The notes under the pieces: generated by a model
The model's input: only the letters and a program-made list of their open reading frames with translations
Told to the model about the DNA's origin: nothing
Database searches by the model: none
Shown here: one piece after another, positions 10,231-38,600 of the stretch
Layout of the letters: each line of letters starts with the position of its first letter
Position numbering within the stretch: the stretch's first letter is position 1
Program-made: the position numbers and the translations under genes
Source of the DNA: Haliotis cracherodii
Lineage: Eukaryota
Direction of reading: 5' to 3'
Length of the DNA: 64,000 nt
NCBI RefSeq assembly: GCF_022045235.1
Contig: NW_027266266.1
Span: forward strand, 20,584,001 to 20,648,000

Positions 10231-11195
10231 ACAAATCAGTAAATGAGCTATCGTGTGACTGGATTATTATTTTCTGGTCCATCGTTGGATTGCCGGGTTT
10301 GGTTACATGCGTCTGTCGCATGACAGGACTAGTGTGTGAGTGAGTGAGTATGGTTTTACGCCGCTTTTAGCAATAATACGGCTGTGTACACCAGAAATGG
10401 GCTTCACACATTGTAGTCATGTTAGGAATCGAACCCGGGTCTTCGGCGTGATGGTGGCCCTTGCCGTGATATTGCTGGAATATTGCCAAAGGCGGCGTAA
10501 AACCATACTCACTCACTCACTTCGGCGTGACGAGCGAACGCTTTAACCACTGGGCTACCCGACCTTCCCCTATGACGGGACTACCTATGTGCGGTGTCCG
10601 GCAACAATACTTTTTTTAATGCAAATTTTGTGCGTGGCTTACCATTTTCGCAAACACCTGGTGTCATCACTGTGGTCAGTGGTCCATTTTCACCGCCAGT
10701 TTGCCTTTTACACCGAATGGATTCTGTTTCGGTTGATAGGTTGGTCCATTCCCTGTCCCTAACGATGCAAAGATGTTTAGTTTGAAAATAAATGCATAAA
10801 ACCTGAAGTAAGTATATTTTCCTGTGTGGTACAACCATGCACTCATTACGTATTCGTTGCCGTCATCGTCGACGCTGGTGCCGTCACAGAAGACCATTAA
10901 GCGTTTCTGTATGTTAAGCTAATTGCCAGCTCTACAATGCGATCGGTATGGTAGCAGGTGTTACTGTTATCTGTCGTGACGATTTTCTACATGGATCAAG
11001 ACATGATTTCGAGTTTCTTAGTTGTTTTATAGCTGTTGATACAATAGCGTGACTTGCTCGGGTAATGAATAGTCCCTCAGAAGTAATCCCATGTAAGTTG
11101 GAGGCAGTTTTATATTTACGTCACAATGAACCACGAAGAGTTCAATAAGACACTGGTAACGCGACTTTTGGTGTTTCAGGTGAATGAGGTGAAGG

Positions 11196-11259
11196 ATGGG
11201 AAGTTTGGGAGAAGACATGGCGGATAAGCCAGACGATAGCACGGACATACCATTGCAGG
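11196..11259 (+). CDS. DAT: Predicted first coding exon of DAT (exon 11180-11259): [21 protein letters not shown](G)
   Basis: Acceptor ttttggtgtttcag ends 11179; strong donor CAGG|GTAAGT at 11260; two in-frame ATGs in good Kozak context (11196 aggATGG, 11217 gacATGG); in-frame TGA just upstream (11190); phase 1 matches the acceptor at 35209. No homology support. Confidence 0.7.
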
Positions 11260-14200: not shown

Positions 14201-17200
14201 CTAACTAGAGATGATCGATTGTCTGCAATGGTGTCAAGCAATAGAGTTAATTTTGCAGTTAAAGTTGTCTACATTGGCCTGTTTCAAATCAATGGGTCTA
14301 ACGTTGAAGTTATTCTTTGCCGAAGGAAGTTTAGTTTCAAAACACAAGGGGCGTATTCAGTTCAGTGTTGAGGGTCAAGGTCACGTTAATCCCGATGTGC
14401 AACTAAAATTAACGTGCTTACAGAGACTGCACTTGAACTGTGAATCTTTGTATTGTTGTGAAAAATTCTATATATTGATTTAGTAATGCTGATTACAACG
14501 CAGAAATCAATGTGTTTACCTGTTGCATTCATGTTAAATCAGTTGGCTAAGGTCACAGACTCAATTCTGAAAATAAAATAATTGTAAAGGCTTTTAAACA
14601 AAACGATATTTCTATGAGTTAAATTTGTCAAACATTTCTCGTAGTTTTTTTAAAATACTTTAGCTGTAATATTTGGAAATCAGACAAAGGTCTCAAGATT
14701 AGTCCTTTCGTTAAAAACTGAAATGTAGAATCGTTGCAGTATAAATTTATGATCAGTCAGTTTCATCACTGACTGGGTATTCCAGCCTTAACATGCATAT
14801 AAAATTAATAACCAAGAACAAGCTTGCAATGTCTCATTTTGTATCATTTTCAGTCTCTAAAACAAATGAACAGTTATAGAATGAACCCACCATAATAGAA
14901 TTGAATCTTTATTATAGTTTTGTGGTTTTCACCATTATAGGTAATTAATACTAATTATAGCCGTTGGAAGTAATATCTATAGTTTAATATCATTTCACAA
15001 AATGATAAAATTTTTACGAGATTGAGTTCATAGCACTGCATCAGAAGGAACTTAGTGTAAACACGTTGTTATTAACTAAACAGATTTTGAAATCCTTGCT
15101 AAAATCATTTTCGGAATTTCGAAATAAACTCAGTTACTTAAATCGTTTAACAGGTAATTAAATCCAGATTGAGTCTAGTACGATCTGGTTTTGAGGAAGC
15201 CAAGTCCCTGATATGCTGCCAGACTAGCCAGGTTTTCCTGCAGGCGTCGACGAAAGCAAACAGCTAAATCTCTGAGTAGCATGTACCACTTTTCTCTGTT
15301 TACCAAACTACCCAACTGAGCGGCGCCTCACGCCTTGAGAAAGCAGGGGGTGAAATAACGGCACAGGGCGTCACAGCGATCTCTATATGTGAATACACTG
15401 GCTCAATTGCCTTTTACTTCGATCTCTTTATTTCTGGCCATTGGACATTGATCCATCGAGTAGCAGATTGGCAAACCGTGTTCGTCGTTTATGGGTGCCT
15501 GTATACATCTAGTTAATAGCACTCAGTGCCAATATAATGGATTATCGTCAAACACAATTAATAAGGTAGAAAAGCATCATTAAGTCATTACGTGCCGTGG
15601 TTATAGACGACTTGATCCCTTTCATCCAACGATAGCCTTTTCTTGAGCTTCGGTGACTGCTGGCTTCAAGAAGTACTTCGTCTCCTCTTGTACCAAAGCC
15701 CAGCGTGACAAAGCATTACGGGGCTGGGTTATCTGATTTTCTTAGTTTAGGTATCCTCTGCTTATGTTATGGTAATATAAGCATATTTGCTTCAATGGTC
15801 TATTACATTTATATACAGTGCTGGAAACAATTTGAAACATGTAGCAATCCATATCCTATGGTACCAAGGCTAATATTCAGGGTCAGGGTGTGTCTAATTT
15901 ACTTTGCTTTACTTACTTATCCTCTGCTTATTTTATGGTAATATAAACATATTTGTTAAAGTGGCTTATTGCATTATGTAAGCTGCTCCAACCTAGTGGA
16001 GAATGTAGTAGACTAGTTTATCTTCAATTGTACCAAATGTTAGCATAATAAAGCATTGATGTGTCTGCTTTGCCTCATTATCCTATGCTTATGTTATGGA
16101 GCATTGTGATAACAAAAGCACAATTGCTTTTTTGGCATATTGATGTTATACCGGAGATTCCAGACTAGTCTTCAATGAAATCGCATTCACTGATAAAAGT
16201 ATCTGAATGTAATGTGTGAATTTAACTTAGCTTGTTGGACTTCTTTGAAAACAGAGTGAGTGAGTTGGGTTTAACGCCGCTTTTAACAGTATACCAGTTA
16301 TATCACGGTGTGTCACCTTAATAGGGGAGGACAGCCTAAAGTGAAGCAGGTCTCAGACGTTTAACACTTCGGTGAAACCCACGAGCATGGGTATAGTGCT
16401 GACAAACCTAGAAACATGATCGGGGCGAACCGGGATTCGAACCAACAATCATGGGTTTCTGGCGTACCCAAGGGACGCAACTCTGCACAGCGAATCGCGG
16501 CGCCTTAGACGACTGGGCCACCCGTACACCCCTTTGGAAACAGAAATGCTACCTGTAACAATACTGGCAATAACGTAGACCTGGTAGGGCGTCTCTCAGT
16601 TTTGATGAAAGTGTTTCTCAGAAACCATGCAGAACATAGAGATTACTACACGAGTGTCAGTTATGTACCATTATTCTTACACCGCGTTAGATTCGAGTTA
16701 GATACGACGGGCACGAGTGCAGTGCTCTGTTTCTTACAAACCCTAATGTCACACCGTTTTAGCATTGAATTGGTGCATATTTTCTCTACCAACGTGATCG
16801 CAGTGGGGCATTGATGCTTTACACAACGGTCATGGCTAACGTCGTCTGGCACACGGCTTACTACTCCTGCTTTGTGTGAATCTCCACATAAACGTTTTAG
16901 CGATAACTTGATTAGCAAGGTGATGATGATCAAACAACATTTATTTAACTCTCCCTAAAGTTTCGACACGGAAATAGGTGCATTCGACTGGAGCACGATA
17001 AACGTATCAATGTAATATAATCAGGAAAGTAGTCCGTCATTATCTGACCTTAGGTCATCACCATGGAGTAGCCAATCACGGAACTGGAAATCGATCACAC
17101 AAATGTTTGATACCATTTTATTTTAAAATGGGATTATTGAAAATTCGCAACCTGATTGGACACATTACGCTAAAATAAACTTTGAATATAAGTTTTAGCA

Positions 17201-20200
17201 TAAAGTAGTTAATATAGTAGTAGTAGTAGTAAGCATACAGTGCTTCAAGCATTTGTTTATTATATAAATAATAATTTCCATAATCATAAGAAATATTCGC
17301 GAAAAGCAGCATTAGAACGATCCCGGCACTGTCAACTAGAAAGCAAGTGATCCATTCATATAATTTTCACCACTATTTTGCCTTTTACGCCCAATCGAGT
17401 TTGTATCGGCAGATAATCGAGTCTGGTTAATCTCTGGCGTTGAAGGGGCGGTCGGGTAGCCTAGTGGTTAAAGCGTTCGCTCGTCACGCCGAAGACCCGG
17501 GTTCGATTCCCGACATGGGTACAATGTGTGAAGCCCATTTCTGGTGTCCCCCGCCGTGATATTGCTGGAATATTGCTGAAAGCGGCGTAAAACCATACTC
17601 ACTCACTCACTCACTCTGGCGTTGACGATTCATATCTATGAATCCCTGTCAAGCAGTAATGAGGACAGGTGTTCGCGAAGAGGTGAGCGTATCCTGCCCC
17701 GACGGAGGAACCCGCCAGGTGTTTGTTTGAGTTTTGATTTAAAATATTTTGGAACACCCTTAAATATGCTCACCATAGTTTGATTGAAATTATCAGTCAT
17801 TCATTGATTCGTAATCTTCTGCTCGTGACAATCCATGATATAACATCAAATAAATGAAAGCGACAAAACCCTTTTCCATAATGATAGCAACGCTCTGCTA
17901 AAAGCAGCGTCCATTGTACGAATCCGATTTATCATAAAAGCCATAATAATGTGCAATTTACATTTTCAATGTAAGACAAATAATACTAACATTTACAGTT
18001 GGCCAGTGGTTGGCCTTGTAGGTCTGTTGACACGTAGCGTGTGCATATGTAAATATCTAACTTCCTGTGCCTTTGATATATAAATGGTTTATTAATGCAC
18101 GCACTTCTTTTACAATCATGCTGCATTGTTTAGTTCCATCTTTGTTAAAGTGAGTTGGGTTTAACGACGCTGCGAACAGTTTTCCAGTTATATCAGGGTG
18201 CGTCAGCTTAACGTGAGAGGAAAGGCCGACGAAACCTTGAAACATAATCGGGACAGGGCAATTATGGCAGGGCAATTGCGATGTGCGGCGCCTAGGAATA
18301 TATACCTTTGTTTAATAACACATTGTACCTACTCCGTGAAGACCCGGGTTCAAATTCTCCACATGGGCACAATGTGTGAAGCCCATTTTTGGGGTCCCCC
18401 GCCGTGATATTACTGGAATATTGCTAAAAGCGGCGTAAACCCATACTCACTCACTCACTCACTCACTCCGGGTTAGAATTGCTCTTCAGCAACCCGTGCT
18501 TGTCGTAAGAGGAGACTAACCGGATCGAGGGGTCAGGCTCGCTGACTAGGTTGATGCATGTCATCGCATCCCAATTGTGTAGATCGATCCTCGTGATGTT
18601 AATCACTGGATTGTCTGGTCCAGACTCGATTATTTACAGACCGCCGGCATATAGCTGGACTATTACTGTGTGCGGCGTTAAACGACATACAAGTGAGGTG
18701 AAATGGGATTTAACGGGGATCGGACCCCGGTCCTTCCGCTCTCCGTACAAACGCTCTAACCACGAGACCACGGAGGCGGTTAAACGACAAACAATCCAAC
18801 ACATTGCGCCCATCTTGAGAATCGTGAGGAGCGACCACTAAAATCACCAGGCTACCCCATCCGCAATTTTCTAATTGTATATGGCAACATAATCATTTAT
18901 TGTATTTATTATGATAACTTCCCATTCGCTCTAAATAGATTCGTTTGAGCCCGACTCTGATTACTTGACGCTAAAATTTCCGGCCAATCAACTGACACGA
19001 ATGAGCGAGAGAAAGTCTGTGAAAAGTTAATGATAAGAGAGATGGTGACGTCACTTCCGAAACGAAGATTTGGTGGCGAATGGTTCCAGGGTATTTGTCA
19101 TAGTAGAATGGAAATCTAATACCCTGGTCATCGAGGACAATTGGGGAATGACAGAAAATATTTTGTGATAGGATTTCGAGGTGAATCAATCAGGAGAGAC
19201 GTTATGATTTAGCGTTATTACTGCTATGAGTAACGGGGCTTCAGATGTCAGTGTTTCAGTGTAGGATCTAATTGGAAGCGACAAAATTATAATGCGACAG
19301 GCGCTCAAGTCACAAGAATCAGATTCAATGCAATGTGATTTTATTCAGCCTTTTGAAACTGAACAGGCTCTATGGGGTCTACAGTTAATGGGTTGTGACG
19401 TGGTATTGTGATATATGCATTTATAATTTATTTGTGACGGTATTTCAGCTTAATGTGGGAGAAAAGCCCGAAGTGATGACGTTTACCAGTTCGGTGAATC
19501 CAACGAGCACCGGTATGGTGCTGACAAACCTAGAAACATAATCGGGGCGAACCGGGATTCGAACCAACAGGTTTCTGGCGTGCCCAAGGGACGCAACTCT
19601 GCACAGCGAATCGCGTCGCCTTAGACGACTGGGCCACCCGTGCCCCCGTATTGACTCAAAGTCAATATAATAAAATGTTAAATCCAGATAATAATCAGTC
19701 TCTATTATCGTCCGAAACAGATTCCACTCTGCATAAATAGCAAAATAGTGGTAAAAGATTATATGAACCTATCCCTAAAAATCAGTGATGTCACCAGGTG
19801 TTCTCGAAAAGGATATGCATGTCCTGCCTAACTGTACCACCAGCCATTCACGCAATTTGCATAAAAATAATGATTTAAAAAACCCAAAAGTACGTGTGTA
19901 CTTTTAACTATGAAATTCAGAAGAAATACATATGGTGCAAAAAAATATAAATGTATATGGTACATAACCGTGTAGAAATTAACCACTTATTCACGCAACT
20001 TTTGAAAATGATATGTTCAAATTGAGACACGTACCGATCGACATAACCTGGAGTCTCCTCGTTTGACACAGAATGTGCTAAAACCGGTCTAACCTATCGG
20101 TAAGACCGGTGCGTCGTGATCGCAACACCACAGCTGTGGCGTGAATTAGCTCTGCTATTATCATAGATAGCCTCTGTGATACTCACATTCGAAAGGCCAC

Positions 20201-23200
20201 CTGACAATTTAGAATACATTTATAATATCCACCATGAGAACGATGGCACAGTCAGTTGTGATGGCTTTTTATTTCCACTCATAAGGTATGTTGCATGCGA
20301 GAGAAAACGATATTGCTGTGTGTTTAGAATCATGTCCCTTGGCTCTGATAGATGCAAGATGACACATATGCAATTTCATTTAACTTCGTAAATGAGTATG
20401 ACAAATATTTCTTTATTTAAATATGTTGCTCATTCGGTGTATCCTTGGTCAAAACGTTGTTTAATTTAGTTTGGTTTTGGTTATTTGCATGTGCTTCATA
20501 TCTAGAATACAATTATGTATTCCATATGATATAAAGCATGGCACACGTGTATACCTGTTAACTATATATGTCTATAAATGTCTCATATACAAAATCATTT
20601 GATGATTAAGGTTTTGGTTTTGTGCTTAATGTGTGATTTATATCAAACTAAAATATAAATTATATAATATTAAGAATGGTCCACATTCATACCTGATACC
20701 TATATATTTTCTTTATTTTGATTATTTTTTTCTCATACACCGAATCATTTGTTCATAACACTGTTGAATAGGGTTTTGGTTTGGTTATTACTTGTATTTT
20801 ATAATCAACTAGAAGAAAATGGGTTAGGTTCATATGATATAAAGTATTGCACATAGGTACAGCTTGTACAGTAGACACAGTAGACATAATAGACACGGTA
20901 GACACAGTAGACATAGTAGACACAGTAGACGTAGTTGTTGTAAATGATATCAATAACCAAATGAATCAAAACCTTTTTCTTCAAGTGAGGACAGATATTT
21001 CATTTACCTAATTTTGTCGAGTGTCTTTTTTTAAATGTATTTCATTATAGCCAACTTTTAAAATACTTTGTCGACCGATTAATGATATTAATTCATTATG
21101 AGAACACATATGTTCTGAAGCATGAAAAAATATAATATATGAAAATAGTTTCTTGTTTATGTAATTTTTACAGTAACTATTACCCCCTAAACTGAAAGCA
21201 ATGTTAATTGATGTGTTCCCACGCAGGGGCAGGATACGCTCACCATGCAGAGAACACCTGGTATCCTTATTTTCTAATAGTGATTCATAAACACATGCTT
21301 ATAGTATCTTCGGAACCGTTCAATGGACTTAAAGCAAATATATCTGTTTAATTATGAAAAGGTTTTGTCGCTTTTATTATTACATACACGGTTCAATTAT
21401 AACTCCACATAAGTGATATACAGACGTTTGTATTGTAATTCACATAAGTGATATACAGATGTTTGTATTCTAATTCACATAAGTAATATACAGACGTTTG
21501 TATTGTAATTCACATAAGTGATATACAACACTTTCAATTGTAAATCCACCAACGGGGATTCCTTGTCAGCATGGAATGGATTTTTCGCTTTTATTCTCAG
21601 GCGTTATGCAACTATTAGATAACAACCTTATTAGCTAAAGTGCACGTGGTGTCTGCAAGTGACTACATCAGGAATGTATTGAGGTCAAGTGTGTAACGGT
21701 ACTCACAGTCACGCACAAGACACGTGTGTAATTTACTCTGAATTCAGTGTGCACCTTATATCAATACATATATCTCTCAATCAGGGTGGATGTTTGTGTA
21801 TTTTCAGCTACTCAATCCGAGAAGGCTAAATTTATCTCTTTTTATGTGTACATGTTTCATTTAAATATTTAGAACTATAAATGTCAAGAGGGTAAAAACG
21901 TTCGGATTCAAAGAAGAAATCATTCTTTGAACCAAGATCGTGAATGGTCATAGCGTGCACATTCCCATGCAATATATAGATATCGATACCGTGATCTTAT
22001 CTACTACAAAACTAGGACATTTGCACAATAGCCTTGTTTTTCATGACTTTGTAAAAACATACTTCTTTTTTTTAATGAGAAAGTTATGCGATAAATCACA
22101 AAGAACAATGAAGAACGAAGCGTGGTTTAATTCACGGTAAGACATTGTTCTATCATGACGTAATTTCTGGAAATTCGTACATGCACGCACCTTGGTGACG
22201 TCATATATTGGACGACATTATTTTTGAGTGGGAAGTGTCTAGTGAGCTGTTCCCCATAGATGTAGCTGGGCAACGTAGATAAATGCAATGGAGAGCGATC
22301 GCATGCAAAAGTGTGAGAGATATGACAATCGGTATTGGGAGAAAAGGTACAGGTAATCGACTTGCAAATTATGAGAAGATGCGGGAAATACCAAAGACGA
22401 TTCGGAACTGCACCTCTCATGGTCTATTCTCACTGCTGTGTATTATTGTACGATAAACAACCCCCACTCATCGTTTATTTCTTAAGTAATGTGGGTTACA
22501 TAAATGTCCATGTGAAGACCCGGGTTAGAATTGGTCTTCAGCAACCCATGCTTGTTGTAAGAGGCTACTAACGGGTTCGGGTGGTCAGGCTCGGTGACTT
22601 GGTTGATGAATGTCATCGCATCCCATTTGTGTAGATCGATGCTCATGATATCGATCACTGGATTGTCTGGTTCAGACTCGACTGTTTACAGACCGCCGTC
22701 ATATTGCTGGAATATTGCTGAGTGCGGCGTATAGTTGTTTTTATGTCATTGAATACCAGTGTTAAAAAATACTGTGCTCGTCTTTATTTATCGCACTATA
22801 ATGTTAAGAATCATTTACTCTCGGTAAAGTTACTCTAATGATTAACACCATAAGTCAAGCTGAAAAAAAGGGAATCGTAAGGTTCACACAGACTTTTTTA
22901 AATTAGAATTTATGCACATTTTAATGTTAAGTCATTGTACATTTTCTGACTTGTTACTATGTCAACAAGTGAAATACAGCAGCTTGATTTCATTGTACAC
23001 CCAGTGCGTACTTGGCTTCTGCTCACACATGAATCGTAATTAACTATCCAAAAGGGATATACATCGGTTTCAACTTTAAATCCTTAAGTGATATACAAAA
23101 GTTTCAACTTTAAATCCATTAGTTATATATATCAGTTTCAACTTTAAATCGTTTAGCTATATACATCAGTTTCAACTTTAAATCCTTTTGTGATATACAT

Positions 23201-26200
23201 CAGTTTCAACTTTAAATCCTTTAGTGATATACACCAGTTTCAACTTTAAATCTTTGAGTGGTATACATCAGTTTCAACTTTAAATCCTTTAGTGATATAC
23301 ATCAGTTTCAACTTTACAACCTTTAGTGGTATACACCAGTTTCAACTTTAAATCCTTTAGTGATATACACCAGTTTCAACTTTAAATCTTTGAGTGGTAT
23401 ACATCAGTTTCAACTTTCAATCCTTTTGTGATATACACCAGTTTCAACTTTAAATCCTTTAGTGATATACACCAGTTTCAACTTTACATCCTTTAGTGGT
23501 ATACACCAGTTTCAACTTTAATTTTTTTGTGATATACATCAGTTTCGACTTTAAATCCTTTAGTGGTATTCACCAGTTTCAACTTTAAATCCTTTTGTGA
23601 TATACACCAGTTTCAACTTTAAATCCTTTTGTGATATACACCAGTTTCAACTTTACATCCTTTAGTGGTATACACCAGTTTCAACTTTAATTTTTTTGTG
23701 ATATACATCAGTTTCGACTTTAAATCCTTTTGTGATATACATCAGTTTCGACTTTAAATCCTTTTGTGATATACATCAGTTTCAACTTTAAATCCTTTTG
23801 TGATATACACCAGTTTCAACTTTACATCCTTAAGTGATATACATCAGTTTCAACTTTAAATCTTTGAGTGGTATACATCAGTTTCAACTTTAAATCCTTT
23901 AGTGAAATACGGCGTTTTCACCTTTAAACTTTTAGTGATATACATCAGTTTCAGTTATAAACCCTTATCTTTTGACGGGTTCCATCGGTTGGCAGGTTTC
24001 GCCCAGCTTCTCGCGAACACTATTTGATAGTGCTTCATAACCATGCTTAAGCGGGGTCGTGAGATGAGGAGATCTTTTTTATGATAATGGAAAGGTTTTC
24101 TTCGCTGTCATTTTGTATACAAGTTTAAGTTATAATGATATATAGCCGTTTCTCTTGTAAAGTGATATACAACTGATTCAATTGTAAATCTACATCGTGG
24201 GGATTCCGGATCAGACTGGGAACCACGCAATACGTGCTGGTCACGTAATGAATCCAGTGGTCAGACTCGGTGGTTGGTTGAGTGGTTGTCATCGACAGTG
24301 ACAGCAAGGATCGTTGCGCATAATGTCAATCACTGGTTTGTCTTGTCCAGACTCGGTGTAAAACCCTTTTAGTTATTACAGTAAACTACGTTATAATGAG
24401 CACGCTTATAACGAACTGACGGATATAACGAACTTATTTTTTTGTCCCGGCCACTGCTGTATCTATGGTGTACACATGCTTTAAACAAACTATGGTTATA
24501 ACGAACTATGGTTATAACGAACTAAAATTAGTTGCCGCATATGTACAAGATAACATTCAACTTGCACCTATTGTTACAAAGTTTATCCTATAGTAATGGT
24601 GTGTATAAATAATGTGTGTGTAATGTGTGTGTAATGTGTGTGTAATTGAAATAGAAGTGCCTCATTTTTCAGTGATTAACAATAAGCAAATTTCTTGGAT
24701 TGAAGGATAAACAAAATAAACAGACTTAATGTACTTTTTCAAGTCATATACAAGGAAATGTCAATTCCACTGTTACATAACAGACATAGAAGTAGAATAT
24801 TATCATTGGCATCCGACCTTCCTTCATTATTTCTCAGCCAGACAGATTTTCACGAAACGTAACACATATTGAACGATATTGTCACAGAGTTATTGAAGAC
24901 AACTAATTCTCAGGTCCCAACAAGCTTTTCTATGTTTGGTACTCTGAAACTCTGAAATTTTTTCCCAGTAAGTTATAAACAACAGTTTCATTTATAAATC
25001 CTAGAAAGTTTTAAACAACAGTTTGAATTATAAATCCAAAAAGTTTTAAACAACAGTTACAATTATAAATCCTGGAAACTTTTAAACAACAGTTTCAATT
25101 ATAAATCCAAGTAAGTTATACACAACCGTTTCAGTTGTAAATCCCAGTAAGCTATAAACAACAGTTTCAATTGTAAATCCCAGTAAGAAATAAACAACAT
25201 CTTCAATTGTGAATCCCAGTAAGCTATAAACAACAGTTTCAATTGTAAATCCCAGTAAGAAATAAACAACATTTTCAATTGTGAATCCCAGTAAGCTATA
25301 AACAACAGTTTCAATCATAAATCCTAGAAAGTTTTAAACAACCGTTTCAATTGTAAATCCCAGTAAGCTATAAACAAGTTTCAATTGTAAATCCCAGTAA
25401 GCAATAAATAAGTTTCAATTGTAAATCCCAGTAAGCTATAAACAACAGTGCCAATTGTAAATCCCAGTAAGCTGTAAACAACAGTTTCAATTATAAAAAT
25501 CCCAGTTAGCTATAAACAACAGTTTCAATTGTAAATCCGAGTAAGCTATAAACAACAGTTTCAATTATAAATCCCAGTAACCTATAAACAACAGTTTCAA
25601 TTGTAAATCCCAGTAAGCAATAAACAAGTTTCAATTGTAAATCCCAGTAACTATAAACAACAGTTTCAATTGTAAATCCCAGTAAGCTATAAACAACAGT
25701 TTCAATTGTAAATCCCAGTAAGCAATAAACAAGTTTCAATTGTAAATCCCAGTAAGCTATAAACAACAGTTTCAATTGTAAATCCGAGTAAGCAATAAAT
25801 AAGTTTCAATTATAAATCCCACTAAGCTATAAACAACAGCTTCAATTATAAATCCAAGTAAGTTATACACAACCGTTTCAGTTGTAAATCCCAGTAAGCT
25901 ATAAACAACAGTTTCAATTGTAAATCCCAGTAAGAAATAAACAACATCTTCAATTGTGAATCCCAGTAAGCTATAAACAACAGTTTCAATTGTAAATCCC
26001 AGTAAGAAATAAACAACATTTTCAATTGTGAATCCCAGTAAGCTATAAACAACAGTTTCAATCATAAATCCTAGAAAGTTTTAAACAACCGTTTCAATTG
26101 GAAATCCCAGTAAGCTATAAACAAGTTTCAATTGTAAATCCCAGTAAGCTATAAACAACATTGCCAATTGTAAATCCCAGTAAGCTGTAAACAACAGTTT

Positions 26201-29200
26201 CAATTATAAATCCCAGTTAGCTATAAACAACAGTTTCAATTGTAAATCCCAGTAAGCAATAAACAAGTTTCAATTGTAAATCCCAGTAACTATAAACAAC
26301 CGTTTCAATTGTAAATCCCAGTAAGCTATAAACAACAGTTTCAATTATAAATCCCAGTAAGCAATAAACAAGTTTCAATTGTAAATCCCAGTAAGCAATA
26401 AACAAGTTTCAATTGTAAATCCCAGTAACTATAAACAACCGTTTCAATTGTAAATCCCAGTAAGCTATAAACAACAGTTTCAATTGTAAATCCGAGTAAG
26501 CAATAAATAAGTTTCAATTATAAATCCCAGTAAGCTATAAACAACAGCTTCAATTATGAATCCCAGTAAGCTATAAACAACAGTTTCAATTATAAATCCC
26601 AGTAAGCTATAAACAACAGTTTCAATTGTAAATCCCAGTAAGCTATAAACAACAGTTTCAATTGTAAATCCCAGTAAGTTTTAGACAACCGTTTCAATTA
26701 TAAATCGCAGTAAGCTGTAAACAACAGTTTCAATTGTAAATCCCAGTAAGCAATAAACAAGTTTCAATTGTAAATCCCAGTAAGCTATAAACAAGTTTCA
26801 ATTGTAAATCCCAGTAAGCAATAAATAAGTTTCAATTATAAATCCCAGTAAGCTATAAACAACAGCTTCAATTATAAATCCCAGTAAGCTATAAACAACA
26901 GTTTCAATTATAAATCCCAGTAAGCTATAAACAACAGTTTCAATTGTAAATCCCAGTAAGCTATAAACAACAGTTTCAATTGTAAATCCCAGTAAGTTAT
27001 AGACAACCGTTTCAATTGTAAATCCCAGTAAGCTGTAAACAACAGTTTCAATTGTAAATCCCAGTAAGCTATAAACAACAGTTTCAATTGTAAATCCCAG
27101 TTAGCAATAAATAAGTTTCAATTGTAAATCCCAGTAAGCTATAAACAACAGTGCCAATTGTAAATCCCAGTAAGCTGTAAACAACAGTTTCAATCATAAA
27201 AATCCCAGTTAGCTATAAACAACAGTTTCAATTGTAAATCCGAGTAAGCTATAAACAACAGTTTCAATTATAAATCCAAGTAAGCTATAAACAACATTTT
27301 CAATTGTAAATCCCAGTAAGCAATAAACAAGTTTCAATTGTAAATCCCAGTAACTATAAACAACAGTTTCAATTGTAAATCCCAGTAAGCTATAAACAAC
27401 AGTTTCAATTGTAAATCCCAGTAAGCAATAAACAAGTTTCAATTGTAAATCCCAGTAAGCTATAAACAACAGTTTCAATTGTAAATCCGAGTAAGCAATA
27501 AATAAGTTTCAATTATAAATCCCACTAAGCTATAAACAACAGCTTCAATTATAAATCCAAGTAAGTTATACACAACCGTTTCAGTTGTAAATCCCAGTAA
27601 GCTATAAACAACAGTTTCAATTGTAAATCCCAGTAAGAAATAAACAACATCTTCAATTGTGAATCCCAGTAAGCTATAAACAACAGTTTCAATTGTAAAT
27701 CCCAGTAAGAAATAAACAACATTTTCAATTGTGAATCCCAGTAAGCTATAAACAACAGTTTCAATCATAAATCCTAGAAAGTTTTAAACAACCGTTTCAA
27801 TTGGAAATCCCAGTAAGCTATAAACAAGTTTCAATTGTAAATCCCAGTAAGCTATAAACAACAGTGCCAATTGTAAATCCCAGTAAGCTGTAAACAACAG
27901 TTTCAATTATAAATCCCAGTTAGCTATAAACAACAGTTTCAATTGTAAATCCCAGTAAGCAATAAACAAGTTTCAATTGTAAATCCCAGTAACTATAAAC
28001 AACAGTTTCAATTGTAAATCCCAGTAAGCTATAAACAACAGTTTCAATTATAAATCCCAGTAAGCAATAAACAAGTTTCAATTGTAAATCCCAGTAAGCA
28101 ATAAACAAGTTTCAATTGTAAATCCCAGTAACTATAAACAACCGTTTCAATTGTAAATCCCAGTAAGCTATAAACAACAGTTTCAATTGTAAATCCGAGT
28201 AAGCAATAAATAAGTTTCAATTATAAATCCCAGTAAGCTATAAACAACAGCTTCAATTATAAATCCCAGTAAGCTATAAACAACAGTTTCAATTATAAAT
28301 CCCAGTAAGCTATAAACAACAGTTTCAATTGTAAATCCCAGTAAGCTATAAACAACAGTTTCAATTGTAAATCCCAGTAAGTTATAGACAACCGTTTCAA
28401 TTATAAATCGCAGTAAGCTGTAAACAACAGTTTCAATTGTAAATCCCAGTAAGCAATAAACAAGTTTCAATTGTAAATCCCAGTAAGCTATAAACAAGTT
28501 TCAATTGTAAATCCCAGTAAGCAATAAATAAGTTTCAATTATAAATCCCAGTAAGCTATAAACAACAGCTTCAATTATAAATCCCAGTAAGCTATAAACA
28601 ACAGTTTCAATTATAAATCCCAGTAAGCTATAAACAACAGTTTCAATTGTAAATCCCAGTAAGCAATAAATAAGTTTCAATTATAAATCCCAGTAAGCTA
28701 TAAACAACAGCTTCAATTATAAATCCCAGTAAGCTATAAACAACAGTTTCAATTATAAATCCCAGTAAGCTATAAACAACAGTTTCAATTGTAAATCCCA
28801 GTAAGCTATAAACAACAGTTTCAATTGTAAATCCCAGTAAGTTATAGACAACCGTTTCAATTGTAAATCCCAGTAAGCTGTAAACAACAGTTTCAATTGT
28901 AAATCCCAGTAAGTTATAAACAACAGTTTCAATTGTAAATCCCAAGTGACAAGCAAGAGTAATTTGACAGTGATTCCCATGCTCATAAGTGTCACCAGAG
29001 TGATACAAGTAAAAACAATGCATCACTTCGGGTTTTCTCCCTCATCAAGCTGACACGACCAATATACCTGTATTCTAATCAAAGAGGCGACATATGTATT
29101 AAAGGTAACCATTAACTAGATTGAAATACATCATAACATGTTAAGTTTGCACATAAAATGAACATTGAGTGACTTAAATAAAAATTGCCAGGATCACCAA

Positions 29201-29581
29201 ATAGGAGTGTTGTACGCCGCTTTAGTAATAATCCAGCGACACTCACTCACTCACTCACATTCGTGTCATATACAACCAGCACATATACAACGCATATACA
29301 AATTAAACCACTCGGGGCATACAAGCTAGCACATATACAATTAACATCAACAAATGGACCTTTCACTGTTCCTACAGACCGTTAATCCGGAAACTACTTA
29401 CACCGGACGATTAAACCGGGAACGGTAGCAGCCGCACTAACAGGGTTAAGCCTTAGACTCGGCATATTGCTTGGGGTGTTGTTAGTAAATTAGGAGCAAT
29501 ATGTCTGATTAATATATCATTTACATTTATGACCGTCTTCAAAATGTACAACCAGCACGAATACATCACAAACACAGTTAT

Positions 29582-29618
<37 letters not shown>

Positions 29619-32600
29619 GCACGCACGCACACGCGCTCGCACGCACACACACTCGTCACGTGCACAACGCTAACCAGCACGTAAACAACACATATAAAAT
29701 AAAACACATGCACACTCGTCACACACACGCGCGCGTACGTACGCACGCATGCACGCATGCACGCACGCACGCGCGCGTGTGTGTGATGAGTGTGCATGTG
29801 TTTTATTGTATATGTGTTGTTTACGTGCTGGTTAGCGTGGGGATTCCGCGTTAGAACTGACCCCATCCACCTATGCTGGTCCCCCGTGGGGATTCCGCGT
29901 TAGAACTGACCCCAGCAACCTATGCTGGTCCCCCGTGGGGATTCCGCGTTAGAACTGACCCCAAGCAACCTATGCTGGTCCCCCGTGGGGATTCCGGGTT
30001 AGAACTGACCCCAAGCAACCTATGCTGGTCCCCCGTGGGGATTCCGGGTTAGAACTGACCCCAAGCAACCTATGCTGGGCCCCGAGGGGATTCCGGGTTA
30101 GAACTGACCCCATCCACCTATGCTGGTCCCCCGTGGGGATTCCGCGTCAGAACTGACCCCATCCACCTATGCTGGTCCCCCGTGGGGATTCCGCGTTAGA
30201 ACTGCCCCAAGCAACCTATGCTGGACCCCCAGGGGATTCCGGGTTAGAACTGACCCCAAGGAACCTATGCTGGTCCCCCGTGGGGATTCCGCGTTAGAAC
30301 TGACCCCAAGCAACCTATGCTCGGCCCCCAGGGGATTCCGCGTTAGAACTGACCCCAAGCAGCCTATTCTGGGCCCTCTGCCACAAAGCGATCTTAGCAC
30401 TACGACTATCGTACATCCCAGTTTTAAGATGCGAATCAGTGGGTCAGGTGGTCAGACTTGGTGACCTGGTTGATTGCTTGTCAGCATGTCCCGACGGCAT
30501 GGATCGATGCTCACAACGTCAATCAGTCACTGGGTTTTCTTGAACAGGCTCAACTATTTACAGGCCGTCTTCGAATAGCTGCAACATTGCTGAGTGCGGC
30601 ATTCAACACTAAACCAACAAAGTTTTAACCTATCCATTTCCATGAATATGATTGCCGCTAAGGCAGTGTCGCATTTGCTTTAGTGTGCATATCTTCTGTT
30701 CGTTTGTTTTTAACGCCGCACTCAGAACTATTCCAGCTATATTGCATCAGCCTGTAAATAATCAAATCAGGACCGGACAATCCAGTGATTGACATCATGA
30801 GCATCAGTCTACGCAAATGGGATACGTTGACATGCATCAACCAAGTCAGCGAGCCTGACCAGCCGATCCCGTTAATAGCCTTTTTACGACAAGCACAGGC
30901 TGCGGCAGACCTATATTCTTACCTGGATAAATATTAAATATTAATAGCATTAGCAAATCGATCACAGTATTGAGGCCATGTTATGGCAAGAGGCACGTAT
31001 GGAGCCATATGTTTCTAGAGTTGTTTGTTTTCTTTTTTCTTTAGCTTTTGGTCTACCGTTTTATAATGTTTGTTTGCTAGGTATATCTTTGTTATTGTGT
31101 CGTATGCTGATGTGTCGAATTCTCGGTTCTTTCGAAATGATTGTTTGGTCCCGCGAATTCCTTTAATATCATTATTTGACCTCTGATAAAAGATAACGCA
31201 TATGTCGAATCATTGGTTGACGGAAACAATATTGCTCTGATAAGTCGATCTGGTAATAAAACTTTTCATCCTGTAATAAATAACTATATGTTACAATGTA
31301 ATACATAAATAAACTGGTAAGCCGTATAAAAGGTAGCTAAAGACAGGAATATTGTAGCGTACACGAGGCAAAAGACAGACAGGAATACTGTAGCGTACAC
31401 GAGGCAAAAGACAGGAATATTGTAGCGTACACGAGGCAAAAGACAGGAATATTGTAGCATACACGAGGCAAAAGACAGGAACAGACAGAAATATTGTAGC
31501 GTACACGAGGCAAAAGACAGGAATACTGTAGCGTACACGAGGCAAAAGACAGGAACATTGTAGCGTACACGAGGCAAAAGACAGGAATATTGTAGCGTAC
31601 ACGAGGCAAAAGACAGGAACATTGTAGCGTACACGAGGCAAAAGACAGGAATATTGTAGCGTACACGAGGCAAAAGACAGAAATATTGTAGCGTACACGA
31701 GGCAAAAGACAGGAACATTGTAGCGTACACGAGGCAAAAGACAGGAATATTGTAGCGTACACGAGGCAAAAGACAGGAACAGACAGAAATATTGTAGCGT
31801 ACACGAGGCAAAAGACAGGAATACTGTAGCGTACACGAGGCAAAAGACAGGAACATTGTAGCGTACACGAGGCAAAAGACAGGAATATTGTAGCGTACAC
31901 GAGGCAAAAGACAGGAACATTGTAGCGTACACGAGGCAAAAGACAGGAACATTGTAGCGTACACGAGGCAAAAGACAGGAACAGACAGAAATATTGTAGC
32001 GTACACGAGGCAAAAGACAGGAATACTGTAGCGTACACGAGGCAAAAGACAGGAATATTGTAGCGTACACGAGGCAAAAGACAGGAATATTGTAGCGTAC
32101 ACGAGGCAAAAGACAGGAATATTGTAGCGTACACGAGGCAAAAGACAGGAACAGACAGAAATATTGTAGCGTACACGAGGCAAAAGACAGGAATACTGTA
32201 GCGTACACGAGGCAAAAGACAGGAATATTGTAGCGTACACGAGGCAAAAGACAGGAATATTGTAGCGTACACGAGGCAAAAGACAGGAACATTGTAGCGT
32301 ACACGAGGCAAAAGACAGGAATATTGTAGCGTACACGAGGCAAAAGACAGGAACATTGTAGCGTACACGAGGCAAAAGACAGGAATATTGTAGCGTACAC
32401 GAGGCAAAAGACAGGAACAGACAGAAATATTGTAGCGTACACGAGGCAAAAGACAGGAATACTGTAGCGTACACGAGGCAAAAGACAGGAATATTGTAGC
32501 GTACACGAGGCAAAAGACAGGAATATTGTAGCGTACACGAGGCAAAAGACAGGAACATTGTAGCATACACGAGGCAAAAGACAGGAATATTGTAGCGTAC

Positions 32601-35600
32601 ACGAGGCAAAAGACAGGAACATTGTAGCGTACACGAGGCAAAAGACAGGAATATTGTAGCGTACACGAGGCAAAAGACAGGAACAGACAGAAATATTGTA
32701 GCGTACACGAGGCAAAAGACAGGAATATTGTAGCGTACACGAGGCAAAAGACAGGAACATTGTAGCGTACACGAGGCAAAAGACAGGAATATTGTAGCGT
32801 ACACGAGGCAAAAGACAGGAACATTGTAGCGTACACGAGGCAAAAGACAGGAATATTGTAGCGTACACGAGGCAAAAGACAGGAACATTGTAGCGTACAC
32901 GAGGCAAAAGACAGGAATATTGTAGCGTACACGAGGCAAAAGACAGGAACATTGTAGCGTACACGAGGCAAAAGACAGGAATATTGTAGCGTACACGAGG
33001 CAAAAGACAGGAACATTGTAGCGTACACGAGGCAAAAGACAGGAATATTGTAGCGTACACGAGGCAAAAGACAGGAACAGACAGAAATATTGTAGCGTAC
33101 ACGAGGCAAAAGACAGGAATATTGTAGCGTACACGAGGCAAAAGACAGGAACATTGTAGCGTACACGAGGCAAAAGACAGGAATATTGTAGCGTACACGA
33201 GGCAAAAGACAGGAACATTGTAGCGTACACGAGGCAAAAGACAGGAACATTGTAGCGTACACGAGGCAAAAGACAGGAATATTGTAGCGTACACGAGGCA
33301 AAAGACAGGAATATTGTAGCGTACACGAGGCAAAAGACAGGAACATTGTAGCGTACACGAGGCAAAAGACAGGAATATTGTAGCGTACACGAGGCAAAAG
33401 ACAGGAACAGACAGAAATATTGTAGCGTACACGAGGCAAAAGACAGGAATACTGTAGCGTACACGAGGCAAAAGACAGGAATATTGTAGCGTACACGAGG
33501 CAAAAGACAGGAATATTGTAGCGTACACGAGGCAAAAGACAGGAACATTGTAGCGTACACGAGGCAAAAGACAGGAATATTGTAGCGTACACGAGGCAAA
33601 AGACAGGAACATTGTAGCGTACACGAGGCAAAAGACAGGAATATTGTAGCGTACACGAGGCAAAAGACAGGAACAGACAGAAATATTGTAGCGTACACGA
33701 GGCAAAAGACAGGAATACTGTACCGTACACGAGGCAAAAGACAGGAATATTGTAGCGTACACGAGGCAAAAGACAGGAATATTGTAGCGTACACGAGGCA
33801 AAAGACAGGAATATTGTAGCGTACACGAGGCAAAAGACAGGAACAGACAGAAATATTGTAGCGTACACGAGGCAAAAGACAGGAATTTTCCAATAAAAAA
33901 AGCTGCACCTTGACAGTTGATATAATGTCATTAGGCTTCCTTTTGTCAAGTTGCATCTCGCAGGTGGTGATGCACTGACGTCATCACTTTCTGCGCTCCT
34001 GGCTGCACTACAGATTAATCAAAAGGGGCCTCCGTCCAGACTAATGATCAATAATGCATTGCAAGGAAATGTCACCTTAATGAAGCTGTCAGCTCAATTC
34101 TAATCCTGTTTTAGATTGTTTGTTTGGCTTAACGTCGATTTTGATTCATGTTGAATATATCAAGTTGAATATTGCCATATCAATACACTAGATCAAGAGT
34201 GTGATTCATGTATGTTCCTTCATAACACACAATAGAGCATTAACGTTTTAAAGATTTTGGATTTTCGTTAACATGGTAAATATCATATTCATTTTTAAAG
34301 ATTCCTGTTTAGAAGGATTCGTACTGGTAATGATTCTTGATCTGTCTGAACTTTACCGTGTTTCACGACCTGAGTCACTTAAGCTGTCTACACCCGGAAA
34401 TAGATATCGCTGAAATACCTTAAACCTATGAAAGGAGTAAGGTGGCTAAGCGTCAACGCATCCCAATGTATTTGTACGCCAAAGAACCGAGTTCGATTAC
34501 GAGTATGTGAGTGAGTGTGCTTTTGTGCCGCTTTTAGCAGTATTTCAGCAATTTTACGGCGGGGGACACCAGAAATGGGCTTCACACATTGTACCAATAA
34601 GGGGAATCGTACACCGACCTTCGGTGTGACGAGCAATCGCTTTAACCACTAGGCTACCCCACCGCTCCCGTATCGAGAACTAAAAATGTAGGACAAAAGA
34701 AAGTATACACACACGTTTGATGGTGGCCTATAATTAAACAAACAAGAAATGTTTTTTCGCCGCCCCTGATTACTCACACAGATTCAACCTGCTGGGGCCT
34801 TCCTCGGGACGCTTTTTTTATTTTTTAATATATTGTTTTTAATTTTCACATCTGAAATATCATTGTTCGCTTGGCAAGCTGGGTATTGTGAAATAAATTT
34901 GTGTTGTAAAAAATATTTACATCGTTCACCTCCTTTCAGAGATAAGACAAAAACTGTGACCGACAAAAATTGTCCGTGAGCCATTATTTTCTTTTTCGTC
35001 CAGCCCTTACTGTAACGCAGAAGCCCTAAATAAAGTCTAGATTTTCTAGAGGTCTCCCAACTCACAGGGGCCCCTTTTCAATTTAAGTTGTTTGTTTCTA
35101 TCCAATATATTTTCAGAGACAAAGCGTTAGACTGGACAGCAATAGTTTCTGTCGCGTATGTCTTGCGACGTAAAATCTGTCTCATTCGGTTTCTTTTTCT
35201 ACACACAGGTAAGGCCCTGGAGAACTGCACAGCGACGGAGAACACGTACATGATGCAGCCACAAGGGGTGCCGGTGAAGGGGGATGTATCGGTAGACGAG
35301 GAAGAGAGGGAAACGTGGGCCAAAAAAATTGACTTCTTGTTATCAGTGGTTGGCTTTGCCGTGGACCTTGCAAATGTCTGGAGATTCCCGTATCTGTGTT
35401 ACAAAAATGGCGGAGGTAAGGGAGACAACCCATTTAGTTATTTAAGGGAGATAACTCTCATATCGTATGCATACACTTTTTCTTATGAATTCATTGTCCA
35501 TTGATAAGTCACCAAAACCTATAAACGTTATCAAAACGCTAATTGACTGATCTTTTGTGAGATACTCATTAATATGATACATCACCATTGAATATCCATT

Positions 35601-38600
35601 TCTTGTTTGTTTCACTTTAGCAACCACCAAGCATGGTGGAAACTTTCTTTTGGCTGGCAGTTAATACTAATTAAGTCAGATTTGAAAAACAAAATTTATG
35701 TTTTTCAAAACTCTTAATATCATATAAAAGGTCAAGAACTGACAGTGGGCAGATGATTTGTAGTTTCTCGTTTCTTGTTCCTAAAATATGTCCTTATATT
35801 TACAACAACTCTCTTCTTATTTCAGGCGCCTTCTTAATACCCTACCTTCTTATGTTGATTCTTGGAGGGATACCATTGTTCTATATGGAGCTGGCTTTGG
35901 GTCAGTTTAACCGGACAGGAGCCATCACGTGCTGGGGTAGAATCTGTCCGCTATTTAAAGGTAATAAATGGTGGGGTTTTATATTTTCAAGTGAAATTTC
36001 TTGTGTTTATCCTGTTGCTGAAAATGTAAATCAAGTCAATTATTAAAAAATCGCATGGCGTTATTTTGACGTGACGCCAACAGCATATTCACCCTTTAGT
36101 AGCTAGTCTGTATGTGTTGCCCGCTCGTCCTAAATTACCGTTCGGCTAAAAAATAAATGTATATCCATCCATTCGCCCGCCTGAATATACATGTATAGTT
36201 TACCGTTTGTGATTTTTAGAAGAAAAAAGCTCTTTCTGTATTTAATTGGAAGAATGTTCAAAGACAGGAAGTAGCTCTGCCCGTAGCTTTGTTTTTATAC
36301 AGCTCTCCGCTTTTTCCGTGTTTTTAACACAGAAAAAGCAGAGATACCGAGTCAGAAGCACTCAACACCGAGTCTCGAGTCATTACAAAATATCGATGCC
36401 CTGTTCATCGGAACGTGCACTTTTCGAAATTGTTCAAATTTCATAACTTCATCCTGATGTCAAGATTCAAATTGTGAAACATTTTGGCACTGTCTTTACT
36501 GACACATTTAGCAGTTGTATTGTATACCAAAGTTATTTTGTTTCTATATATATTTATTCTTTGTTTTAGTTCTACCGCGCTCCCACTCCCTCTAAATCTG
36601 AACATTGAAATGAGAAAGACACTAAACAATATGACATGATAGGATCTTAAGTTGCTTACCCCGCTCACAGAGAGCCGGGTTAATATATATTTAATACCTG
36701 TGCTTTAGTTGAAATTAGTTGAAAATAATCGAGTCTGGACCAGACAGTCCAGTGATTGACATCATGAGCATTAATATGATGAAATGCATCAGCCAAGTCA
36801 GCGAACCTGACCACCCGACTCCGTTGGTCGCCTCTTACAAGTATAGTTCCTAGAAAATCATTAAATACGTATGGTGGGCGTGGAAAATACAAAATATATT
36901 GCCCCGAAAGGAAACATTATCAATTTCTTATCCAATAAATCATAAAGCACGTTGCTATCGCTATCTAAACTGTTTTATGCATGTGATCAGGTTCGTTTAA
37001 GGGTTGGTTTTTAAATGTATTTTCCAAATCAGGTCCTTACTCCTTTGGCACAATAGAACATGCTGCGCCAAGTATTTGGACATCGAACATCGTCGTCGAT
37101 ATCGATAAAAATAATACCCACAGGAAAAAAGGAGACATTGATTTAAATTCTAGTGTATTAGAATTTTCGAATAAGTCCATTTTTTTCAATGTGACTGCTT
37201 CTCAACATCAAAATAAGGCTATATTGGAATCGATGCAAACTTGAATTACTCCCATCAAGAAATGAACACTGCAGCTGAAAAGCGTGCAAAAACCTTATTT
37301 TAACGACCATACATTTTACGTAACTTTCTTTTTACCCATAAAGTGCTAATCGAAAAGAAATTGGATCTCGTTAGAGTTAGCTCCCTTAGAATAAACGCCA
37401 CATTCAGACGTTAAGGGAGGGTTTATTGTAATGATTCAAGTCAACCGTCGACTGACAATGGCCGTTAACGATCGTTCGGGTATATTAATGGAACTTTGAC
37501 GTCAGTTCCGGTGTGGTATTTGCTCTGATGGCGGACTGACACGGTGCGGAGCGTGATTAGAGAGAGCACACATAGTCCGCCGATTGCTTAACTGAATGCG
37601 AAAATGGAGTGTTTTAGATTTCAATTGGGGACGTGTTAATTTGATAGGTTGATTTCCGGGGAATTAACCCCGATAGTGGTGAATTCTTCAAGATATGCAT
37701 TTCAATAAAGAGGGGCTGTGTTCACACTTTCAACGACAAGATACCAATCTTGTAATGGCGGTCTGAATGATAAGAACTAGTACAATTAGCTTTCTTGACC
37801 CTAGCCTGCAGAGAGCCACATCTCAATGATTGTGATGGAGTCGATCTAAGATAACCTCATGTTCATTTAATTAATGGAAAATGAGTCTGTTTATTATACA
37901 AATATCAAGCTTTGCTGAATGTCATTTTTTCGTGCCATTGGCAAATATTCAACTTTTTATGTTGCTGAAGGTTTTTATGTTTAAATGAACTAAAATAATC
38001 TTGATTCATGACACGATCAATACTTAAGATTATGAAAAATGCATTGTATTAGTGTAATATCAGCACACTAATTGTTACGATAAGCATATGCACAATTATA
38101 CTGAGAGCAAATGTAGGTACCTTTATGTTATCATACTTTTTGTGTTTGAATATTGGCGGTCAGCATAACCTTTCACATAGCGTTTCTCTTGTTCAGATTC
38201 TAAAGCCTTTAAGCGTTCTATTTTGTAAACCTCAATTGTAGAGGACGAGATCAATTGCTTAATATAAAGTCAGTTCACACCTGCTTCGATCTCTTCATAT
38301 TAGTAACAGTTAGGTACAAGATCATATTCGTTGTAGTTAGGTACAAGAATCAGCTTTATGTCAAACGGTTGGTTATGTTGGAACAGGAAAAATATAAAAC
38401 GGTTGAACTCTAACATCGTCTTTTTGCATATTAGTCATAACACTGTGCATGATGTTGTGGAAAGTCAAACTCATGCACTTATTAAAATGGAATGTATGCT
38501 TGGCGTCAACAATATACACCCTTTAAATAATATTCTGAAGTTTAGTTCGGCAAACAAATGTTTCTCAACTTTGAATTTGACGTTTCTGGTTGGCCTAAAT

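What the first reader, a model, noticed from the sequence alone, without database searches (positions are those of the whole stretch)
35190..35421. Recursive-splice-like AG|GTAAG site at the end of a 24-kb intron could delete TM1 in frame
Seen: the acceptor ttctttttctacacacAG is followed immediately by GTAAGG. Splicing to the predicted upstream exon regenerates CAGG|GTAAGG, almost identical to the original donor CAGG|GTAAGT and carrying the same intronic hexamer as the exon's own donor (GAG|GTAAGG at 35416). The exon is 207 nt, phase 1-1, so use of the regenerated donor would remove 69 codons, including the substrate-binding Asp of TM1, without a frameshift. Known: RS-exons in long introns of neuronal genes are governed by such donor competition, and the exon junction complex suppresses re-splicing. 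Inference: a switch between functional DAT and a transport-dead isoform.
Basis: partly seen in the sequence, partly recalled or inferred. Interest (0 to 1): 0.7.

Follow-up and report, generated by a model that had tools for sequence, protein, structure and literature searches.

The report
Latent splice donor, abalone dopamine transporter
An exon of the abalone dopamine-transporter gene starts with letters that recreate a splice signal once it is joined to the previous exon, but every assembled transcript examined keeps the exon and related snails lack the signal, so it is likely an ordinary silent site rather than a switch to a dead transporter.

Summary
The gene is abalone (Haliotis) DAT. 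A 23,949-nt intron ends in AG|GTAAGG. The 207-nt, phase 1-1 exon carries TM1 and Asp74 (human D79). The predicted upstream junction 11259→35209 is seen in RNA contigs. Skipping would remove 69 codons in frame.

The switch is not supported. In 7 of 7 RNA-like runs laid (5 studies), one contig keeps the exon and no second contig covers the next exon. Contigs drop rare forms, and tissues are unknown. The regenerated donor pairs slightly worse with U1 than the exon's own donor (-9.4 vs -10.1 kcal/mol). Eight of 8 other gastropod DATs have Glu/Asp-Lys at this position, which excludes an exon-initial GT if the intron sits at the same place. In distant orthologues the +5 G is lost synonymously in 4 of 8. 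Such sites are common: 3.6% of human exons, 93.8% of them constitutive (PMC6224609).

Verdict: a putative annotated RS-exon, likely kept silent. Side result: this genome shows what look like true fly-type intronic ratchet points elsewhere.

The parts
11180..11259 (+). Upstream exon: first coding exon of DAT, ATG at 11196, donor AGG|GTAAGT
   Evidence: Model identical to P0010; its last 30 nt are the loose end before 35208 in contigs of X6 and X14
11260..35208 (+). 23,949-nt phase-1 intron; no polypyrimidine-preceded AG|GTRAG site inside it
   Evidence: only weaker YAG|GTAATT/GTAATC sites at 14941, 15154, 22353
35190..35208 (+). 3' splice site (pyrimidine tract, then ACACACAG); 61-nt AG-free zone
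   Evidence: spliced contigs begin here
35209..35214 (+). GTAAGG: first six exon bases (rest of Gly22, Lys23, first base of Ala24); forms the regenerated donor AGG|GTAAGG after splicing
   Evidence: U1 duplex -9.4 kcal/mol; +6 is A in organisms B, C, D
35209..35415 (+). 207-nt coding exon, phase 1-1, N-terminal tail and TM1; included in all spliced contigs seen; in-frame ATGs at 35250/35253 match the start of RefSeq isoform X2 (P0008)
35364..35366 (+). Asp74 codon, equivalent to human DAT D79
   Evidence: Alignment to PDB 9jkh_A; numbering
35416..35421 (+). The exon's own donor GAG|GTAAGG, used in the transcripts seen
   Evidence: GT..AG joint of 410 nt in X2, X6, X14; U1 duplex -10.1 kcal/mol
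35826..35960 (+). Next exon, 135 nt, also phase 1-1; same length (45 codons) as the TM2 exon skipped in honeybee AmDATΔex3

Best explanation
This is the TM1-encoding exon of abalone dopamine transporter; it is included in every assembled transcript examined, and the donor-like site it recreates at its upstream junction is likely kept silent. Steps: (1, shown) the 24-kb intron is removed between 11259 and 35209; (2, shown by sequence) this creates AGG|GTAAGG; (3, shown) the 410-nt downstream intron is removed from the exon's own donor at 35416; (4, inferred from human and fly work) the regenerated site loses because an exon junction complex sits just upstream of it and the own donor pairs at least as well with U1. 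The short downstream intron may also often be removed first, leaving no nearby acceptor (inferred). The GTAAG is likely a by-product of the usual AG|GT preference at exon starts in a phase-1 Gly codon, followed by a Lys codon that is conserved for protein reasons.
For: Inclusion in 7 of 7 RNA-like runs from 5 studies: X1, X3, X4, X11 and X2, X6, X14. In 6 of 7 runs the depth over the next exon equals that of the single inclusion contig. X11 shows 9.55 vs 9.22 expected and also has intronic contigs. 0 of 7 Haliotis proteins in the cluster lack the exon. U1 pairing is -9.4 vs -10.1 kcal/mol. 8 of 8 other gastropod DAT proteins with an alignable N-terminus have Glu-Lys or Asp-Lys here. In 8 distinct distant orthologous loci the Lys codon is AAA in 4, against 1 of 24 AAA at Lys codons inside the exon core. 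[quoted passage not shown] The site does not match this genome's ratchet-like class, whose second donor usually lies 20-90 nt downstream (18 of 30), against 207 nt here.
Against: The regenerated donor is a good one: stronger than 7 of the gene's 12 native donors in the window. It has the same intronic hexamer as the competitor and follows a long intron. GTAAG is unchanged in organisms B, C, D, though they differ at only 4-5 of 207 exon positions. All 8 distant orthologous loci also start the exon with GTAA, so the GT start may be old. The genome seems to use recursive splicing elsewhere. Contigs cannot exclude a rare isoform, the tissues are not on record, and EJC repression was not tested in abalone. 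PMC6224609 found no EJC effect on annotated RS-exons in fly S2 cells, while PMC8184009 reports EJC repression of regenerated sites in fly.
Confidence: 0.8

Rival explanations
1. Regulated recursive-splicing switch: in some neurons or stages the regenerated donor is used, giving an in-frame DAT without TM1 that cannot transport and may lower full-length DAT.
For: Strong regenerated donor, in-frame deletion, long upstream intron. Ratchet-like sites elsewhere in the genome. A transport-dead, down-regulating DAT splice form is known in honeybee, though from the next exon (PMC6838227). Exon-start GTAA also occurs in 8 of 8 distant loci.
Against: No skipped contig in 7 of 7 runs and no skipped protein among 7. 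The motif is absent in 8 of 8 other gastropods by protein sequence and broken synonymously in 4 of 8 distant loci.
Confidence: 0.07
2. A minor skipped form exists but arises by ordinary one-step exon skipping or splicing noise; the mature RNA would be identical to the recursive product.
For: The exon is frame-symmetric, so a skipped form escapes nonsense-mediated decay. The two routes give indistinguishable mRNA (PMC8184009 passage).
Against: No skipped form was seen at all.
Confidence: 0.08
3. The AG|GTAA start is an old, selected feature of lophotrochozoan DAT that helps define the exon after a long intron (U1 or acceptor recognition) without causing skipping.
For: G|GT AAR starts the matching exon in abalone and in 8 of 8 distinct distant loci; scallop DATs also have Gly at this position.
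Against: Invariance of the T is not significant: 5 of 15 four-fold sites in the same exons are also invariant. The next exon also starts GT in 5 of 6 distinct such loci. Other gastropods lost the Gly.
Confidence: 0.05

Closest known systems
Annotated (mostly constitutive) RS-exons repressed by the EJC, human and mouse (Blazquez et al. 2018, PMC6224609; abstract, passages, sections 14 and 15 read)
   Same: A coding exon that reconstitutes a good 5' splice site at its upstream junction and is nevertheless included.
   Different: Mollusc; EJC dependence, spliceosome binding and RS-lariats not tested; scored here by U1 duplex energy, not MaxEntScan.
[quoted passage not shown] CkIIβ, CG31156 (Joseph and Lai 2021, PMC8184009; passages read)
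   Same: Regenerated site in a coding exon with poor conservation; those authors call their cases functional but evolutionarily fortuitous.
   Different: Their sites are weak and in short introns; this one is a good donor after a 24-kb intron, and no activation has been shown.
Drosophila intronic ratchet points and expressed RS-exons: Ubx-m1, msi, sm, kuz, Bx (Joseph et al. 2021, PMC8605326; passages read)
   Same: Acceptor directly followed by a donor, after a long intron; outcome set by donor competition, exon elements and prior splicing.
   Different: Ratchet points have ultraconserved junction motifs and short, poorly conserved, normally skipped exons. Here the exon is long, essential, conserved and included, while the motif is labile.
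Honeybee AmDATΔex3 (Zhang et al. 2019, PMC6838227; abstract and section 17 read)
   Same: In-frame loss of one N-terminal exon of an invertebrate DAT gives a non-transporting protein that lowers full-length DAT.
   Different: It removes the 45-codon TM2 exon, which matches 35826-35960 here by length and content (that exon starts GC, not GT). It is seen in RNA, whereas the TM1-less abalone form was not seen.

Membership tests
Putative annotated RS-exon (PMC6224609 definition) | Real exon spliced to a preceding exon | tested here: met
   Junction 11259→35209 in contigs of X6 and X14
Putative annotated RS-exon (PMC6224609 definition) | Reconstituted donor above the score that covers 90% of the species' donors | tested here: inconclusive
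   MaxEntScan not available. By U1 duplex energy it beats 7 of 12 native donors of this gene, so it very probably passes, but no species-wide threshold was computed.
Functional RS-exon (alternative or EJC-sensitive) | Skipped mRNA detected | tested here: inconclusive
   Not seen in 7 of 7 runs or 7 proteins; contigs show presence, not absence, so a rare form is not excluded
Functional RS-exon (alternative or EJC-sensitive) | RS-lariat starting at the exon's first base, or skipping after EJC loss | not testable with these tools
   No raw total-RNA reads or knockdown data were offered
Drosophila-type ratchet point with cryptic RS-exon | Short cryptic exon (second donor within about 100 nt), normally excluded from mRNA | tested here: not met
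   First downstream GTRAG is at +207 and the exon is included
Drosophila-type ratchet point with cryptic RS-exon | Strongly conserved AG|GT donor motif | tested here: not met
   Glu/Asp-Lys in 8 of 8 other gastropods (intron position inferred from protein); +5 G lost in 4 of 8 distant loci
Drosophila-type ratchet point with cryptic RS-exon | Associated with a long intron | tested here: met
   Upstream intron 23,949 nt; the second step would remove only 617 nt
Invertebrate dopamine transporter (SLC6) | Full SLC6 transporter with the monoamine-type TM1 Asp | tested here: met
   561 of 561 residues identical to P0010, annotated DAT-like; PF00209; Asp74 aligns to human D79. Substrate not assayed.

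The most novel reading that the evidence does not exclude
An old lophotrochozoan DAT junction (AG|GTAA, kept in abalone and in a distant animal lineage) is used recursively in some dopaminergic neurons to make a TM1-less, dominant-negative transporter. This would be a physiological recursive-splicing switch on a neurotransmitter transporter in a mollusc, in a genome that also seems to carry fly-type ratchet points.
Probability: 0.07. Interest if true: 0.65.

Novelty: new member of a known kind. Interest (0 to 1): 0.16.

Why it matters
As it stands it is one more exon with a latent regenerated donor, a class that covers a few per cent of exons in the animals studied; it matters little. If skipping were shown, it would link recursive splicing to control of dopamine uptake in a mollusc. 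The side observation is the more promising lead: clustered, co-oriented ratchet-like sites with short hidden exons elsewhere in the abalone genome. Our searches found no paper on recursive splicing in molluscs (the library lacks most subscription journals).

Tried and rejected
Run search: no RNA holder listed on record. 21 runs were listed, 17 guessed to be RNA. I laid 7 of those 17 and 1 of the 4 of unknown kind. All are contigs, so no read-level percent inclusion, lariat or sawtooth test was possible. The whole 24-kb intron exceeds the laying limit, so skipping was sought as a second contig or loose end at the next exon. The loose-end tables were cut (1950 rows hidden, 51), so the argument rests on the depth and piece tables.

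Conservation in close relatives (B, C, D) is uninformative at about 2% divergence. H. asinina and H. rubra keep Gly-Lys, but their codons could not be seen.

A search with residues 1-52 of the protein for a skipped isoform returned only the known cluster (1 of 6 candidates); this is a weak test. The protein-representatives job was still queued and gave no result.

Of 80 metagenome loci, 57 had the monoamine-type TM1 motif. An exon start could be assigned in 9 (8 distinct); the other 48 were left out.

Left out of the gastropod count for truncated or unalignable N-termini: P0019, P0020, P0024, P0027. P0017 is a second model of the Pomacea locus. The bivalve, cephalopod and unnamed proteins P0003, P0021, P0023, P0025, P0026 could not be aligned at the junction.

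No strict ratchet point was found inside the 24-kb intron. Searches had script errors (ATG off by one; one locus empty), corrected; notebook entry 1 still holds the uncorrected 11197 and 35827. Look-ups of earlier findings near this place returned nothing. No paper on abalone DAT was among the 9 listed (listings only). No supplements were read.

Full report
Observation. The sequence is as described. The acceptor AG at 35207-35208 is followed by GTAAGG. The exon runs 35209-35415 (207 nt) and ends in GAG|GTAAGG. The upstream coding exon is 11180-11259, ATG at 11196, donor AGG|GTAAGT, so the intron is 23,949 nt. Twelve exons in the window translate to 561 residues identical to the start of P0010, a RefSeq protein named sodium-dependent dopamine transporter-like of Haliotis cracherodii. 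The last two exons lie just beyond the window. Skipping the exon removes 69 codons without a stop, including Asp74, which aligns to human DAT residue 79. That loss of TM1 abolishes transport follows from general knowledge of SLC6 transporters and was not tested.

Is it more than chance? AGGTAAG occurs 5 times in the window against 5.85 expected. Five of 12 exons of this gene begin with GT, as expected from the AG|GT preference around introns; phase-1 introns often lie in Gly codons (PMC3096672, passages read). Four of 11 internal coding exons are frame-symmetric. The downstream phase-1 boundary is shared by many distant monoamine transporters, so frame preservation is inherited gene structure. 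In human, 3.6% of exons reconstitute a donor, 93.8% of those are constitutive, and 21.7% of genes hold one; fly has about half the share (PMC6224609, passages and section 15). One such exon in a gene of this size is therefore unremarkable.

Donor strength. With the U1 5' end taken from this genome, duplex energies are -9.4 kcal/mol for the regenerated donor, -10.1 for the exon's own donor and -10.0 for the original donor. The regenerated site has G at -2, so it is one pair short of its competitor. This is a crude score, not MaxEntScan.

RNA. Seven runs guessed to be RNA, from five studies and three coded organisms, were laid on the locus; they are 7 of the 17 such runs listed. Each has one spliced contig that carries the exon and goes on to the next exons. 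The 410-nt GT..AG joint is listed for X2, X6 and X14, and adjacent record coordinates show it for X1, X3 and X4. For X11 it is inferred from a 135-nt gap between the listed pieces. In X6 and X14 the letters before the exon are the last 30 nt of exon 11180-11259, which confirms the predicted partner. Depth over the next exon equals the single inclusion contig in six runs; X11 has a small excess (9.55 vs 9.22) and intronic contigs as well. So no skipped contig was seen. Contig depths were 6.6-75, tissues are not on record and contigs drop rare variants, so this shows dominant inclusion and not absence of skipping. None of 7 Haliotis proteins in the cluster (5 species) lacks the exon. The one shorter isoform, P0008, starts at the Met-Met inside this exon and lacks the upstream part instead.

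Conservation. Organisms B, C and D keep GTAAG and change +6 from G to A, and D keeps the own donor. At 4-5 differences in 207 nt this says little. Gly-Lys is in all five Haliotis species. Eight of 8 other gastropod DATs with an alignable N-terminus have Glu-Lys or Asp-Lys (Gigantopelta, two Patella, Littorina, Babylonia, Nucella, Pomacea, Batillaria). With a phase-1 intron their exon would start with A. That the intron lies at the same place is inferred: two gene models of the Pomacea locus diverge exactly before the Glu. Three scallops have Gly-Thr, which cannot give GTAAG. Against a simple reading, 9 unnamed animal contigs (8 distinct: L044, L048, L051-L054, L082, L095) encode a DAT-like exon of 210-222 nt whose inferred start is also AG|GTAA. 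The start may therefore be old. But the T is no more invariant than expected (5 of 15 four-fold sites are invariant), and the next exon also starts GT in 5 of 6 distinct loci. The +5 G is lost by a synonymous AAG→AAA change in 4 of 8, while Lys codons in the exon core are AAG in 23 of 24 (Fisher p 0.009, but the sequences are related, and A-rich codons near exon ends are, from recall, a known bias). If anything this points away from selection for a strong donor. These acceptors are inferred from DNA only.

How it most likely works. After the long intron is removed, a donor-like site exists at the junction, but the exon's own donor is used. By analogy with human (PMC6224609) and fly (PMC8184009, PMC8605326; passages read), an exon junction complex upstream of the junction and donor competition keep the site silent. 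This step is inferred. The fly evidence is mixed: PMC6224609 saw no EJC effect on annotated RS-exons in S2 cells. I put about 0.8 on a silent site, 0.08 on minor ordinary skipping, 0.07 on a regulated recursive switch and 0.05 on a conserved helper role.

Comparison with the genome's own ratchet-like sites. The pattern of ten pyrimidines, N, CAG|GTAAGT gave 30 hits in G000, against 8 for a one-base control and 20 for the reversed pattern (counts are lower bounds). Seven pairs lie within 150 kb, all on the same strand, against 0.11 expected under uniform placement. Within each cluster the loci are not copies of one another. Eighteen of 30 have a second GTRAG 20-90 nt downstream, against 10 of 120 control windows. 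This is the layout of fly ratchet points with cryptic RS-exons; no RNA was laid on them and the host genes were not identified. It makes recursive splicing plausible in abalone. It also shows that the DAT site, a long included coding exon, is not of that class.

Known versus new. It works like, and by sequence probably is, an annotated RS-exon of the constitutive kind; it fails the tests for a ratchet point. A dead DAT isoform made by in-frame exon loss is known in honeybee, but it removes the 45-codon TM2 exon (PMC6838227, abstract and section 17). Searches for recursive splicing with 'mollusc' gave 0 papers and with 'mollusk' 2 general reviews seen only as listings. None of the 8 papers listed contains 'ratchet point'. 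Verdict: real motif, ordinary class, switch unsupported; interest 0.16.

Noticed in passing
G000:C6:25862147/25886487/25946128 (+); C5:17958519/18011618 (-); C7:13952533/14015460 (+); C56:6339046/6392046 (-); C34:3381165/3510651 (-); loci L012-L041: Thirty strict ratchet-point-like sites genome-wide. Seven close pairs are all co-oriented (0.11 expected), and 18 of 30 have a second donor 20-90 nt downstream (control 10 of 120). Likely fly-type recursive splicing in abalone; host genes and RNA not examined.
   Followed up: partly
window 11180-11259 and 35250-35255: RefSeq isoform X2 (P0008) starts at the Met-Met inside the TM1 exon, so it lacks the coding exon 11180-11259. That exon itself begins AG|GTGAAT. 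RNA contigs extend up to 634 nt upstream of the TM1 exon, so further 5' UTR exons exist; a donor-like AAG|GTAAGT at 781/782 is an untested candidate. A different upstream exon would change the strength of the regenerated donor.
   Followed up: no
window 35826-35960: 135-nt phase 1-1 exon matching the exon skipped in honeybee AmDATΔex3; no skipped contig was seen in the runs laid.
   Followed up: partly
L044, L048, L049, L051-L054, L082, L095: Distant DAT-like exons with pyrimidine-poor acceptors and weak own donors (GTATAA, GTGTCA, GTGCAG). There the exon-start GTAAG/GTAAA looks as good as or better than the real donor. L054 has a second AG|GTAAG about 30 nt upstream of the inferred acceptor.
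   Followed up: partly
G000 genome-wide: At least 107 matches to the SLC6 TM1 exon, many in clusters on C2 and C78, suggesting a large expansion of this transporter family.
   Followed up: no
P0007 and P0009: The two H. asinina isoforms differ by one residue just before the junction (Pro-Gln-Gln vs Pro-Leu-Gln), hinting at duplicated alternative upstream exons; H. asinina and H. rubra also lack ten residues in that exon.
   Followed up: no
G000:C6:9319493-9362260: Tandem array of more than 30 U1 snRNA genes at about 565-bp spacing.
   Followed up: no
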